A stretch of 57,221 nucleotides of DNA. It comes from Escherichia phage vB_EcoP_phi296. The stretch lies in the sequence record PV189400.1. The stretch is one strand, 5' to 3'. Shown in pieces: positions 48,001-51,000 of this stretch (positions are counted from its first letter, which is position 1; every line of letters starts with the position of its first letter). Position numbers: made by a program.

Positions 48001-51000
48001 AGAAGCGTTGCGCCTTGCTGCTGATCTTGCTGAGCAGAAAATGCAACTGGAAAACCAGCTCGCAATTGCCGCACCTAAAGTTGAGTTTGCCGATCGCGTT
48101 GGCGAGGCCAGCGGAATTTTGATTGGAAACTTTGCAAAGGTTGTTGGTATTGGTCCAAACAAACTGTTTGCGTGGATGCGCGATCACAAAATCCTTATTG
48201 CTTCAGGTGCCCGGCGCAATGTGCCAATGCAGGAATATATGGATCGCGGCTATTTCACAGTGAAAGAAACAGCGGTCAATACAAATCACGGAATACAGAT
48301 ATCGTTCACCACAAAAATCACCGGGCGTGGTCAACAGTGGCTGACAAGAAAGCTGCTAGATAACGGAATGCTTAAAGTAACAGGGGAGGCTGCTTAATGG
48401 CTAAACCAGCGCGAAGGAAATGCAAAATCTGTAAGGAATGGTTTCACCCGGCATTCTCAAATCAGTGGTGGTGCTGCCCGGAACACGGAACTCAATTAGC
48501 ACTCGAACGACGAAGTAAAGAACGCGAAAAAGCGGAAAAAGCAGCAGAGAAGAAACGACGACGAGAGGAGCAGAAACAGAAAGATAAACTGAAGATTCGA
48601 AAACTCGCCTTAAAGCCCCGCAGTTACTGGATTAAACAAGCCCAACAAGCCGTAAACGCCTTCATCAGAGAAAGAGACCGCGACTTACCATGTATCTCGT
48701 GCGGAACGCTCACGTCTGCTCAGTGGGATGCCGGACATTACCGGACAACTGCTGCGACACCTCAACTCCGATTTGATGAACGCAATATTCACAAGCAATG
48801 CGTGGTGTGCAACCAGCACAAAAGCGGAAATCTCGTTCCGTATCGCGTCGAACTGATTAACCGCATCGGGCAGGAAGCAGTAGACGAAATCGAATCAAAC
48901 CATAACCGCCATCGCTGGACTATCGAAGAGTGCAAGGCGATCAAGGCAGGGTACCAACAGAAACTCAAAGACCTGCGAAACAGCAGAAGTGAGGCCGCAT
49001 GACGTTCACCGTAAAAACCATTCCTGACATGCTCCTTGAGGCATATGGAAATCAGACCGAGGTAGCCCGAATACTGAACTGCAATCGTGCCACAGTCAGA
49101 AAATACATTGGCGATAAAGAAGGGAAAAAGCACGCCGTCGTCAATGGCGTCCTTATGGTTCATCGCGGATGGGGTAAAGATACTGATGCGTGATATCCGG
49201 CAGGTTCTTGAGCGCTGGGGTGCATGGGCGGCAAATAACTATGAGGATGTTACATGGTCGCCCATTGCTGCCGGATTTAAGGGACTGATCCCCGAAAAAG
49301 TAAAATCACGTCCACAGTGCTGTGACGATGATGCGATGGTGATATGCGGGTGCATAGCCCGCCTTTACCGGAACAATCGCGATCTGCATGACTTGCTGGT
49401 TGATTATTACGTGTTGGGGGAGACGTTCATGGCGTTGGCACGGAAACATGGGTGCTCTGACACCTGTATAGGTAAACGCCTTCACAAAGCGGAGGGGATT
49501 GTTGAAGGCATGCTGATGATGCTGGGAGTGAGGCTTGAGATGGATCGGTATGTTGAGCGTGAATTGCCGGGAGGGAGAACCTCTGTATTTTATCAGCGAA
49601 AAAATAGTTTACGATCGTAAAAATCTGCATATCATGATAAGAGTGGTTACATTGCCACGCAGTCGAACCCGCCGATGCGCGGGTTTTTTTGTACCCCGAA
49701 TCCTGTGAGCTATACGGAAAGTACACAGAAAGGAAGGTGCGACCGTAATTAATAACAAAATCTTAAAAATCGCATATAGCACTATTAGTTTTCTAAATAT
49801 TGTATATTTTAAGTATTGCAGGATAACCCTGTAACGAAGTTTGCGTAACAGCATTTTGCTCTACGAGTTTGCCAGCCTCCCCCAGTGGCTGGCTTTTTTA
49901 TGTCCGTAGCGTCAAAGCAGCAATGGCGCTAGGGCGTCGTGCAATTGGCGTTGAGCTGGAGAGCGGGCGTTTTGAGCAGACGGTCAGGGAAGTTCAGAAT
50001 GTAGTCAGTCAGAACGGATGATATTGCAGAATTAGTTACGTACCGTTATTATCCTGCGCCCGGCCCTTTAGCTCAGTGGTGAGAGCGAGCGACTCATAAT
50101 CGCCAGGTCGCTGGTTCAAATCCAGCAAGGGCCACCATCACATACCGCCATTAGCTCATCGGGATAGAGCGTCAGCCTTCGAAGCTGGTTGCGCGGGGTT
50201 CGAGTCCTCGATGGCGGTCCATTATCTGCACACTGCGTTGTTAGCTCAGCCGGACAGAGCAATTGCCTTCTAAGCAATCGGTCACTGGTTCGAATCCAGT
50301 ACAACGCGCCATATTTATTTACCAGGCTCGCTTTTGCGGGCTTTTTATTACAGGAAAGACACTGGACAGTGAAATGTTAAATGCCTCACAATTCAGGCAG
50401 TTGATGATTGTCTGGTTGACGGAGAGTTGTTAAAAAAGTTTTGCATGGTGAATCCCCCTGAGCGGAGGGGCGACTGGTGACGGTATAATCTCTGATTATC
50501 AAAACGAGAATGACGAGGGTTTAGTGGCACCGGGCTGAACTCACCGGGAGGCACCCGGCACCATGCAATGGCACATAGCGCCACTCTCCAGCCCCTCTCC
50601 GGAGGGGCTTTCTTATGGACAAAAAAGCCCGCGCTGGGAGACGCGGGCGGCAAGGAATAAACAATGAAACGTGAAGTAATATTTCAGCTGGCGAATAATA
50701 CCCTATAGTAATCACTCTGCGCAACTGCGCGACCTTTTTCGAATTGCGGGCTGTAGTCTCCCTTCTGCCATTGTCCTGTAACTTCCGGACTTCAGCCCGC
50801 TCCTTATTTTACTCACAATATTATCCCGGCCGGGAGGATTCATGGCATTTAAACACTATGATGTTGTCAGGGCGGCGTCGCCGTCAGACCTTGCGAAACG
50901 AATAACTCAAAAACTGAAGGAAGGGTGGCAGCCTTATGGTAGTGCGCTGATTTCGACAGCTGGTTATGGTGCGGAGTTCATCCAGCCAGTTGTGAGTGAG

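What the first reader, a model, noticed from the sequence alone, without database searches (positions are those of the whole stretch)
49621..50061. Q-to-tRNA interval: two intrinsic terminators about 180 nt apart plus a methyltransferase gene remnant
A strong terminator lies only about 45 nt after the Q stop (49666-49690) and a second at 49871-49900. The interval between them could be a pR'-initiated short transcript analogous to lambda 6S RNA, or two successive Q-dependent read-through points. Just beyond is a 32-codon frame resembling the C-terminus of an amino-methyltransferase, suggesting an older gene was disrupted when the tRNA or toxin locus was assembled.
Basis: partly seen in the sequence, partly recalled or inferred. 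Interest (0 to 1): 0.4.

Follow-up and report, generated by a model that had tools for sequence, protein, structure and literature searches.

The report
Known Stx-phage late leader: pR', terminators, StxS
This stretch is the already-described late-gene control region of a 933W/Sakai-type Shiga-toxin phage (here without toxin genes): a promoter at the end of gene Q, two terminators in a row that yield the known small RNA StxS, and the dead tail of a DNA methyltransferase gene that still carries the tRNA promoter.

Summary
Both intrinsic terminators (T1 49665-49690, T2 49871-49899) and the methyltransferase C-terminal remnant (49908-50021) are present.

None of it is new. The interval differs by one base from phage 933W and from Sakai prophage Sp5. 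The 1999 933W record already annotates pR', qut, both terminators, the tRNA promoter pT and the three tRNAs at exactly these positions.

The pR' short transcript analogous to lambda 6S RNA is real and has been characterised as StxS (Sy et al. 2020). It is 258 nt long and is cut by RNase E to a roughly 74-nt Hfq-binding sRNA. It does not start between the terminators. pR' overlaps the Q stop codon (49608-49635) and the start site is A49642, so T1 lies at +24 to +49 inside the transcript. Both terminators are therefore successive read-through points.

My additions:
- T1 sits where phage 21's tR' sits and recurs across the Q21-family cassette, sometimes replaced by unrelated terminators.
- The T1-T2 segment occurs only in 933W/H-19B-type phages, and also behind a lambda-family Q.
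- The remnant equals residues 316-352 of an intact 352-aa N6/N4 methylase found at the same spot in other Stx phages, so the break is on the upstream side, not the tRNA side.

Verdict: ordinary and already known.

The parts
49186..49620 (+). Gene Q, the 144-aa late antiterminator of the Q21 family
   Evidence: Pfam PF06530 at E = 1e-50. Distant match to the Q21 structures 6P18 and 6JNX, E = 1.7e-7. Annotated Q in 933W and Sakai.
49608..49635 (+). Late promoter pR': -35 TTTACG (49608-13), 16-nt spacer, -10 TATCAT (49630-35). It overlaps the Q stop codon.
   Evidence: Promoter scan hit. The same 28 nt are annotated pR' in 933W, Ss-VASD and phi345. The dRNA-seq start site on the identical Sakai sequence lies 7 nt downstream.
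49642..49899 (+). StxS_L, the 258-nt pR'-to-tR' transcript. It is the 5' leader of the late mRNA when Q is present.
   Evidence: 100% identical to Sakai Sp5 over this span. The 258-nt length, the 3' end in the T2 U-run and the unique GUAUU with its cut at +173 all place +1 at A49642.
49638..49658 (+). Conserved start-site and initial-transcribed box TAAGAGTGGTTACATTGCCAC, the candidate qut / pause determinant. It contains the 933W-annotated 'qut' at 49649-49656.
   Evidence: The box stays nearly constant across phages whose -35 and spacer have diverged. More than 120 IMG/VR contigs carry it. The qut feature is in the 933W record. Its function was not tested.
49665..49690 (+). T1, the first intrinsic terminator, at +24 to +49 of the pR' transcript. 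It is the positional equivalent of phage 21 tR'.
   Evidence: for the hairpin. Annotated terminator in 933W and phi345. A hairpin plus U-run follows the box in almost all of 46 distinct variants, with stem conserved and loop free; a few carry stem-weakening mutations and 8 have unrelated replacement terminators. Phage 21's terminator spans +3 to +50.
49813..49817 (+). RNase E site GU|AUU, cut after U49814 (+173), which releases StxS_S
   Evidence: The only GTATT in 49642-49899. Cleavage at +173 within GUAUU was reported by Sy et al..
49815..49899 (+). StxS_S, the stable Hfq-binding 3' sRNA. It is reported as 74 nt; the 5' end falls at 49815 by dRNA-seq and about 49823 by RLM-RACE.
   Evidence: (PMC7547250), transferred by sequence identity.
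49871..49899 (+). T2, the second intrinsic terminator. It is the tR' of Sy et al., where Term-seq places the 3' end.
   Evidence: Fold. Annotated terminator in 933W, Stx2 phage I and phage 7888. The Term-seq 3' end lies 258 nt from the start site. The stem is invariant in all variants seen.
49908..50021 (+). 3' remnant (37 codons plus stop) of an N6/N4 DNA methyltransferase gene. DNA homology begins at 49911 and the ATG-initiated 32-codon frame is 49923-50021.
   Evidence: PGAP pseudogene 'missing N-terminus'. Equals residues 316-352 of the intact 352-aa protein, and the DPPY and FxGxG motifs are lost. PHROG C-terminal matches.
50024..50052 (+). pT, the tRNA promoter (TTGCAG, 17 nt, TATTAT), immediately downstream of the remnant's stop codon
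   Evidence: 933W feature 'pT; putative tRNA promoter'. A primary start site between tR' and stx2 that drives the tRNAs was reported on the Sakai sequence. The only difference from Sakai and 933W in the whole interval is at 50030.
50062..50311 (+). ileZ (CAU), argN (UCG) and argO (UCU) tRNA genes
   Evidence: ARAGORN, Rfam, and annotations.
50324..50350 (+). Terminator after the tRNA block
   Evidence: Scan and fold: -12.1 kcal/mol, z = -3.95. 933W feature.

Best explanation
The interval is the late-operon control leader of a 933W/Sp5-type lambdoid phage that lacks stx.

Shown by mapping on an identical sequence: the constitutive sigma-70 promoter pR' (49608-35) overlaps the end of Q and starts transcription at A49642.

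Inferred from family knowledge: in a lysogen there is no Q, so RNA polymerase crosses the conserved initial-transcribed box, where a sigma-dependent pause and Q loading are expected. It then meets T1 at +24 to +49 and, if it reads through, T2 at +230 to +258.

Shown on the identical Sakai sequence: transcripts ending at T2 are the 258-nt StxS_L. RNase E cuts this at GU|AUU (+173) to give the stable Hfq-binding sRNA StxS_S, which activates rpoS and, where an stx1 phage is present, represses stx1B.

Inferred from Q21 structural work and the 933W/H-19B literature: after induction, Q (Q21 family) loads onto the paused polymerase and makes it blind to hairpins. T1, T2 and the terminator after the tRNAs are then all read through into the late genes, and the StxS sequence becomes the 5' leader.

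Inferred from comparison: T1 is the ancestral tR' of this cassette. The ~245-bp T1-to-T2 unit moves as one module; within it, the ~220 bp beyond T1 (StxS body plus T2) are the part added in this lineage.

The 37-codon methyltransferase tail downstream is a dead remnant left by a deletion or recombination that joined the end of the StxS segment to codon 316 of the methylase. It probably survives because the tRNA promoter pT begins 3 nt after its stop codon.
For: Identity:
- Window 49560-50065 equals Sakai Sp5 except at 50030.
- Window 49186-50138 equals 933W except at 49221 and 50030.
- The wider region is 100% identical to phages phi315 and phi367 and to the bovine strain E2855 chromosome.

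Prior annotation: the 933W record lists pR', qut, two terminators, pT, the tRNAs and a further terminator at the corresponding positions.

Experimental mapping on the identical sequence: start site, 258-nt length, Term-seq 3' end, RNase E cut at +173, Hfq binding and targets come from PMC7547250. Three anchors agree on +1 = 49642.

Family membership: Q is PF06530 and 144 aa, the class Sy et al. found linked to StxS.

T1 as the cassette's terminator:
- A hairpin plus U-run follows the box in nearly all of 46 distinct variants, and 8 have unrelated replacement hairpins at the same place.
- In phages 4A7, Kati and SfII it is the only terminator before the holin gene.
- Phage 21 has -35, QBE, -10, start site, SDPE, a terminator spanning +3 to +50, then tRNAs.

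T2 as lineage-specific: it is present in 12 of 94 distinct segments, all with the 933W-type box.

Module boundaries: the T1-T2 unit also follows a 250-aa lambda-family Q (PF03589), with homology starting exactly at 49665. It ends at 49908 in Stx1 phages.

Remnant.
Against: - No experiment was done on this phage; everything functional is carried over by sequence identity.
- Sy et al. do not mention T1, and they detect a full 258-nt RNA without Q. A canonical terminator at +24 to +49 must therefore be leaky in vivo, and how leaky is unknown.
- My rough d-score (formula recalled from d'Aubenton-Carafa 1990, ViennaRNA energies) rates T1 weaker than T2, 7.5 against 24.1. This is only indicative.
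- Covariation in T1 is weak. 93% of cells are paired, there is a single double compensatory change, and 34 of 500 shuffles reach the score. Support rests on conservation and positional replacement rather than covariation.
- The exact QBE and SDPE of this Q subfamily are not defined. Resemblance of the spacer to the phage 21 QBE is only 4/8 and 6/8 per subsite (my reading).
- The conserved TAAGAG straddles the start site rather than lying at +2 to +8.
Confidence: 0.9

Rival explanations
1. T1 ends the early (Q) transcript, pR' lies in the AT-rich stretch between the terminators, and the short RNA runs from that internal promoter to T2.
For: The AT-rich stretch 49740-49830 holds promoter-like hexamers. 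The Stx2 phage I record annotates a putative -35 and -10 at positions equal to window 49776-81 and 49796-801. TSSPredator called a primary start at the StxS_S 5' end.
Against: - The dRNA-seq pR' start lies 258 nt from the 3' end.
- RLM-RACE recovers the StxS_S 5' end without TAP, so it is monophosphorylated.
- The 258-nt form accumulates when RNase E is inactivated, and the 5' end sits in the unique GUAUU site.
- The promoter, box and T1 unit is conserved as a block directly upstream of lysis genes in phages that lack the AT-rich segment altogether.
- The promoter scan found no + strand site between the terminators.
Confidence: 0.05
2. T1 is not a working terminator in this lineage. It would be a 5' structural element of StxS_L, or part of the Q-loading signal, and T2 would be the only real tR'.
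For: Sy et al. report the 3' end only at T2 and an abundant 258-nt precursor made without Q. T1 scores lower than T2 on the rough terminator score.
Against: - T1 has every feature of an intrinsic terminator: 8 pairs with 5 G-C, and seven U.
- In relatives it is the only terminator between pR' and the lysis genes.
- It is replaced by unrelated hairpin-plus-U-run terminators in other cassettes.
- Phage 21's proven tR' occupies the same position.
- A roughly 50-nt RNA would be missed by standard RNA-seq size selection and by a 3'-end Northern probe (inference).
Confidence: 0.15
3. The 50-aa (49869-50021) or 32-aa (49923-50021) frame encodes a functional small protein rather than a dead remnant.
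For: It is annotated as 'DNA methylase' CDS in many phage records and has its own PHROG, phrog_14488.
Against: - The first 13 codons of the 50-aa frame are the T2 terminator itself.
- Methylase similarity covers only residues 14-50.
- The DPPY catalytic motif and the FxGxG AdoMet motif are absent.
- PGAP flags it as a pseudogene.
- It lies downstream of two terminators, and no ribosome-binding site is evident (read).
Confidence: 0.03

Closest known systems
Phage 933W and Sakai Sp5 (VT2-Sakai) Q-to-stx2 region (Plunkett et al. 1999 record NC_000924; Sakai NC_002695)
   Same: The sequence is essentially identical, with 1 nt different across 49621-50061. The same pR', qut, two terminators, methylase remnant, pT and ileZ-argN-argO are present.
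   Different: This phage has no stx2AB. About 1.3 kb present in Sakai between the tRNA terminator and the STnc100-like region is replaced by about 38 nt. The ileZ-argN spacer is 7 nt instead of 9.
StxS small RNA (Sy, Lan & Tree 2020, PNAS; PMC7547250)
   Same: The 258-nt StxS_L locus is 100% identical to StxS2 of Sp5, with the same RNase E site and the 144-aa Q upstream. The authors noted StxS in non-toxigenic phages too.
   Different: Nothing differs in sequence. Expression from this particular phage is untested. With no stx1 in the window, the stx1B-repressing role would act only in trans on another prophage.
Phage 21 late regulatory cassette (Q21, pR', QBE, SDPE, tR'; Guo et al. 1991; Yin et al. 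2019)
   Same: The Q family is the same (PF06530). The promoter starts within a few nt of the Q stop, a terminator ends at about +50, and tRNA genes come next, before the lysis genes.
   Different: Q is only distantly related to Q21 (E = 1.7e-7 over 80 residues). The QBE and SDPE sequences are not conserved. Phage 21 has no second terminator and no StxS-like segment.
Lambda 6S RNA (pR' to tR', 194 nt)
   Same: The logic is the same: a constitutive late promoter whose transcript is terminated before the late genes unless Q is present, leaving an abundant short RNA in lysogens (the paper's discussion; established knowledge).
   Different: Lambda uses a different Q family (PF03589), shows no sequence similarity, and has a single terminator. 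No function is known for 6S, whereas StxS has defined targets.
Intact phage N6/N4 DNA methyltransferase upstream of ileZ in phiP27, Stx2a_WGPS2, 94-3024 and UMNF18 Stx phages
   Same: The last 37 codons, the 41-nt gap carrying pT and the tRNA block are collinear. DNA is about 90-95% identical from 49911 onward.
   Different: Here the first 315 codons, the upstream 65-aa ORF and the spacer are missing, replaced by the StxS segment ending in T2.

Membership tests
Q21-family (PF06530) Q-dependent late antitermination cassette | A Q protein of the family encoded immediately upstream | tested here: met
   PF06530 at E = 1e-50 over the full profile. PDB Q21 match at E = 1.7e-7.
Q21-family (PF06530) Q-dependent late antitermination cassette | A sigma-70 promoter (pR') at or just after the end of Q, with a mapped start site | tested here: met
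   Scan hit 49608-49635. The start site was mapped on the identical Sakai sequence, and three anchors give 49642.
Q21-family (PF06530) Q-dependent late antitermination cassette | An intrinsic terminator shortly downstream of the start site and ahead of the late genes | tested here: met
   T1 at +24 to +49 and T2 at +230 to +258. The position is recurrent across the family and in phage 21.
Q21-family (PF06530) Q-dependent late antitermination cassette | A Q-binding element and a sigma-dependent pause element | tested here: inconclusive
   The conserved box 49638-49658 and the 933W 'qut' annotation exist. The spacer matches the Q21 QBE subsites only 4/8 and 6/8, and there is no clear -10-like element at +2 to +8.
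Q21-family (PF06530) Q-dependent late antitermination cassette | Q-dependent read-through of the terminators | not testable with these tools
   Needs in vitro transcription or reporter assays.
StxS sRNA | Sequence identity to the characterised StxS locus, from pR' start to tR' | tested here: met
   49642-49899 is identical to Sakai Sp5.
StxS sRNA | 258-nt precursor with an RNase E GU|AUU site at +173 | tested here: met
   The only GTATT is at 49813. 49814 - 49642 + 1 = 173, and 49899 - 49642 + 1 = 258.
StxS sRNA | Expression, Hfq binding, and regulation of rpoS and stx1B | not testable with these tools
   Carried over from PMC7547250 by identity only.
N6_N4_Mtase (PF01555) DNA methyltransferase | Catalytic (D/S)PPY motif | tested here: not met
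   The intact homologue has TDPPY at residues 34-38. The remnant starts at residue 316.
N6_N4_Mtase (PF01555) DNA methyltransferase | AdoMet-binding FxGxG motif | tested here: not met
   FFMGSGST ends immediately before the junction and is absent from the window.
N6_N4_Mtase (PF01555) DNA methyltransferase | Significant match to the family profile | tested here: not met
   The remnant scores 13 bits against a cutoff of 26.7, covering profile positions 197-220 of 221 only. The intact homologue scores 151.6 bits. It is therefore a remnant, not a member.
Lambda 6S RNA / lambda-type Q cassette | A lambda-family Q (PF03589) and lambda pR'/qut | tested here: not met
   The window's Q is PF06530. It is an analogue only.

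The most novel reading that the evidence does not exclude
T1, not T2, would be the principal Q-gated tR' of this phage, as it is in its relatives and in phage 21. StxS would then be made only from the fraction of polymerases that leak through T1. On this reading the T1-to-T2 segment is a portable 'sRNA-after-the-terminator' cassette that has moved between unrelated Q/pR' systems, joined exactly at the T1 hairpin, and T1 leakiness sets the lysogen's StxS dose. That would add an unreported ~50-nt pR' RNA and a tunable attenuator to the published StxS model.
Probability: 0.35. Interest if true: 0.3.

Novelty: already known. Interest (0 to 1): 0.1.

Why it matters
The region matters biologically because it is the switch that couples Shiga-toxin and lysis gene expression to prophage induction, and it is the source of StxS, a phage sRNA that raises host RpoS. 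All of that is published.

For this window the practical consequences are limited:
- The 81-aa minus-strand ORF and the 50-aa 'DNA methylase' ORF should not be annotated as genes.
- The stx-negative phage still carries a complete StxS locus.
- The role of the promoter-proximal terminator T1 in setting StxS levels has apparently not been examined.

Tried and rejected
- Rfam at E <= 1 gave no family for 49621-49900. Only the tRNAs and STnc100 further downstream matched, so StxS is not represented there.
- Covariation test of T1. The stem is too conserved, with one double compensatory change, and the score is reached by 34 of 500 shuffles. I rely on positional replacement and loop-versus-stem conservation instead.
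- Search for an origin of the StxS body (49691-49870). In the phage collection it occurs only as the complete T1-T2 unit (289 of 290 records at >=80% coverage, all >=93.9% identical). It has no similarity to the T1-to-methylase spacer of phiP27-type phages.
- Plunkett 1999 (PMC93574) could not be read, so I used the GenBank features instead.
- The NC_002695.1-to-.2 coordinate offset (142) rests on my memory of stx2A coordinates. I therefore anchored the start site through the 258-nt length, the U-run end and the unique GUAUU at +173, none of which depends on the offset.
- The minus-strand 81-aa ORF (49609-49854, phrog_17306) is rejected as coding. A 1-nt indel inside T1 frameshifts it in phages 75/02 and 7888 while the hairpin is kept, most substitutions are non-synonymous, and in the lambda-Q phages (L004, L020) the shared sequence stops at T1, so the ORF's last 18 codons are not conserved there.
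- A terminator d-score was computed from a formula recalled from memory. It is used only as a relative indication.
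Full report
**What is in the sequence**

The window around the finding reads, left to right on the + strand:
- NinG, NinH and a 144-aa Q gene (49186-49620)
- a 441-nt non-coding interval, which is the finding
- three tRNA genes (50062-50311)
- a terminator
- about 500 nt of non-coding sequence
- a 645-aa NanS-p-type esterase gene

T1 is an 8-pair stem at 49665-49686 with seven T at 49684-49690. It folds at -14.9 kcal/mol, z = -2.4. T2 is a 7-pair G+C-rich stem at 49871-49893 with a 9-nt loop and six T at 49894-49899. It folds at -14.5 kcal/mol, z = -3.3. 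Both terminate on the + strand only. The region holds 11 terminator-like sites against about 3 expected by chance.

**Identity of the locus**

- The 1.75 kb around the finding is 100% identical to phages vB_EcoP_phi315 and phi367, and 99.9% identical to the stx-negative phage TL-2011a.
- Window 49560-50065 differs from Sakai prophage Sp5 at a single base, 50030.
- From Q to the first tRNA the window differs from phage 933W at two bases, 49221 and 50030.
- The interval or parts of it occur in 1020 of 5426 complete E. coli genomes.
- The window contains no stx gene. Relative to Sakai, stx2AB is missing between about 50347 and 50385.

**Prior annotation**

The 933W GenBank record carries every element of the finding. 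Converting with window = record + 28942 gives:
- pR' at 49608-49635
- qut at 49649-49656
- a 'possible rho-independent terminator' at 49668-49690
- a second terminator at 49871-49899
- the tRNA promoter pT at 50024-50052
- ileZ, argN and argO
- a terminator at 50327-50350

The phi345 and Ss-VASD records repeat the pR' and T1 labels. The 7888 and Stx2-phage-I records label T2.

**The short transcript**

Sy, Lan and Tree (PNAS 2020, PMC7547250) worked on the Sakai sequence, which is identical here. They mapped the following:
- the primary pR' start by dRNA-seq
- the 3' end by Term-seq, 258 nt downstream at the predicted tR'
- Hfq and RNase E cross-links
- an RNase E cut within GU|AUU at +173

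The cut converts the 258-nt StxS_L into a stable sRNA of about 74 nt, StxS_S. This sRNA activates rpoS and represses stx1B.

In the window the only GTATT between Q and T2 is at 49813-49817. A cut after U49814 at +173, and a 3' end at the last U of the T2 run (49899) at +258, both give +1 = A49642. That is 7 nt after the -10 hexamer TATCAT found by the scan. This placement does not depend on genome-version coordinate offsets.

The same paper states that the short Q (144 aa) co-occurs with StxS and that some non-toxigenic phages carry it. Both fit this window.

The '6S-like RNA' idea is right, but the geometry is not. The promoter is upstream of both terminators, and T1 lies at +24 to +49 inside the transcript.

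A promoter between the terminators has been proposed before, in the Stx2 phage I annotation. TSSPredator also called a start at the StxS_S 5' end. However, RLM-RACE without TAP and accumulation of the 258-nt form in an rne-ts strain show that this end is produced by processing.

**What T1 is**

I aligned the promoter-to-T1 region with distant relatives: 4A7, Kati, phiP27, WGPS2, SfII, EH2201, 75/02 and UMNF18. The -35 and spacer diverge. A block running from just upstream of the start site to +17 (TAAGAGTGGTTAC.T.G.CAC) stays nearly constant, and a hairpin plus U-run follows it.

An IMG/VR scan with that block returned more than 120 contigs. These reduce to 94 distinct 375-nt segments and 46 distinct box-to-terminator segments. 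Findings from the set:
- Almost all have a hairpin plus U-run 8-25 nt after the block. A few variants carry stem-weakening mutations.
- In the homologous ones the stem is conserved and the loop varies freely (CGATGC, CGTCGA, GCCT, CGCGA, GTCA).
- Eight have entirely unrelated replacement terminators at the same place.

Formal pair counting gives 93% paired cells but only one double compensatory change, A-U to C-G in the 75/02 and 7888 type. The covariation score is reached by 34 of 500 shuffles. The argument therefore rests on conservation and positional replacement, not on covariation.

In 4A7, Kati and SfII this terminator is the only one before the holin gene. In the well-annotated phage 21 genome the order is -35, QBE in the spacer, -10, start site, SDPE at +2 to +8, a terminator spanning +3 to +50, tRNA genes, then the holin. 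Q here belongs to the Q21 family (PF06530). I conclude that T1 is the positional equivalent of phage 21's tR' and the ancestral terminator of this cassette.

**What T2 and the StxS body are**

T2 occurs in only 12 of the 94 distinct segments, all with the 933W-type box ACATTGCCAC or GCATTGCCAC. In the phage collection the T1-T2 unit is found only as a whole, at 94% identity or more.

Its boundaries are sharp:
- In sorbitol-fermenting O157 strain 493/89 and in phage Lys8385Vzw, homology begins exactly at the first base of the T1 stem (49665). There it lies behind a 250-aa lambda-family Q (PF03589). That Q has its own promoter, TTGCAT-17-TAAGAT, followed by CAACGATGGG, which I recall as the lambda pR' pause-inducing sequence.
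- In Stx1 phages homology ends at 49908, 9 nt after the T2 U-run.

The segment is therefore a module used behind two unrelated Q systems. This is expected if Q-modified polymerase ignores any hairpin, as the Q21 structures indicate.

**An unresolved point**

Sy et al. do not discuss T1, yet their 258-nt RNA must pass through it without Q. T1 must therefore leak. A rough terminator score rates T1 below T2, 7.5 against 24.1. The formula is recalled from memory, so only the ranking is meaningful. Whether T1 stops most polymerases and yields an unreported ~50-nt RNA cannot be decided with these tools.

**The methyltransferase remnant**

PGAP annotates 49908-50021 as 'site-specific DNA-methyltransferase, incomplete, missing N-terminus'.

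In Stx phages of strains 94-3024 and UMNF18, and in phiP27, WGPS2 and EH2201, a full gene sits at the same place. It encodes 352 aa and matches PF01555 at E = 4e-44. It ends 41 nt before ileZ, exactly as the remnant does.

DNA homology starts at 49911. The remnant SVKAAMALGRRAIGVELESGRFEQTVREVQNVVSQNG corresponds to residues 316-352 of the intact protein, 31 of 37 identical. The AdoMet motif FFMGSGST lies immediately before the junction and is lost, as is TDPPY.

The widely annotated 50-aa 'DNA methylase' ORF (49869-50021) begins inside T2, and only its residues 14-50 resemble methylases.

The intact gene is already contiguous with pT and the tRNAs in other phages. The disruption therefore came from the upstream side, where the StxS segment joins, and not from insertion of the tRNA or toxin block. 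pT begins 3 nt after the stop codon (50024), which plausibly explains why this tail was kept. That last point is an inference.

**Other strand**

The 81-aa minus-strand ORF at 49609-49854 is annotated in several phage records and forms its own PHROG of unknown function. In 75/02 and 7888 a 1-nt insertion in T1 frameshifts it while the hairpin is preserved. Most differences between variants are non-synonymous. In the lambda-Q phages (L004, L020) the shared sequence stops at T1, so the ORF's last 18 codons are not conserved there. I regard it as a spurious call over the StxS locus.

**Verdict**

The feature is a textbook Q-controlled late leader that was annotated in 1999, and its short RNA was characterised in 2020. 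Novelty: already known. Interest: low. The only open thread is the quantitative role of the promoter-proximal terminator T1.

Noticed in passing
window 50415-50620 (+): Strong Rfam match to sRNA family STnc100 (RF02076): 158 bits, E = 5.5e-37, full length. It lies between the tRNA block and nanS-p, in sequence that in Sakai lies just downstream of stx2B at about 85-90% identity.
   Followed up: partly
window 50347-50385: stx2AB is absent. Relative to Sakai Sp5, about 1.3 kb (stx2A and stx2B) is replaced by about 38 nt, and tblastn finds no stx anywhere in the window. The phage keeps StxS, the three tRNAs and nanS-p. The identical arrangement is chromosomal in bovine strain E2855, so it is natural rather than a laboratory deletion.
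   Followed up: partly
window 49665 and 49908-49911: Mosaic breakpoints coincide with the terminators. Homology to phages with a lambda-family Q starts at the first base of the T1 stem. Homology to Stx1 phages ends 9 nt after the T2 U-run, exactly where the methylase remnant begins.
   Followed up: yes
window 49609-49854 (-): An 81-aa ORF annotated as a hypothetical protein in many Stx-phage records (phrog_17306) overlaps pR', T1 and most of StxS. It is frameshifted in 75/02 and 7888 and shows mostly non-synonymous variation, so it is probably not a gene.
   Followed up: yes
window 49643-49658: The conserved initial-transcribed box contains an inverted repeat, GTGG-N8-CCAC. It could form a 5-pair hairpin at +2 to +17 of the nascent RNA or act as a DNA site. 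The position before CAC varies only between C and T, both of which pair with G. My search pattern fixed most of these bases, so covariation could not be judged.
   Followed up: no
window 50138-50144: The ileZ-argN spacer is 7 nt here against 9 nt in Sakai and 933W. ARAGORN calls ileZ tRNA-Met (CAU); the records call it tRNA-Ile2.
   Followed up: no
window 50590-50609 (+) and 50648-50627 (-): A pair of convergent terminator-like hairpins lies upstream of nanS-p. The + strand one is the 3' hairpin of the STnc100-like element.
   Followed up: no
L142 (phage 21) 1339-1579: In phage 21 the tR' is also followed directly by tRNA genes (Asn, Thr) before the holin. tRNA genes placed just after the late terminator thus recur in Q21-family cassettes.
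   Followed up: no
L005 (UMNF18) 512-1004; L012 (4A7) 1-700: In some relatives the pR'-box-T1 unit is not adjacent to Q. It lies about 500 nt downstream, after an inserted ORF or an oppositely oriented porin gene (nmpC/OmpD-like). A moron therefore sits between Q and its promoter.
   Followed up: no
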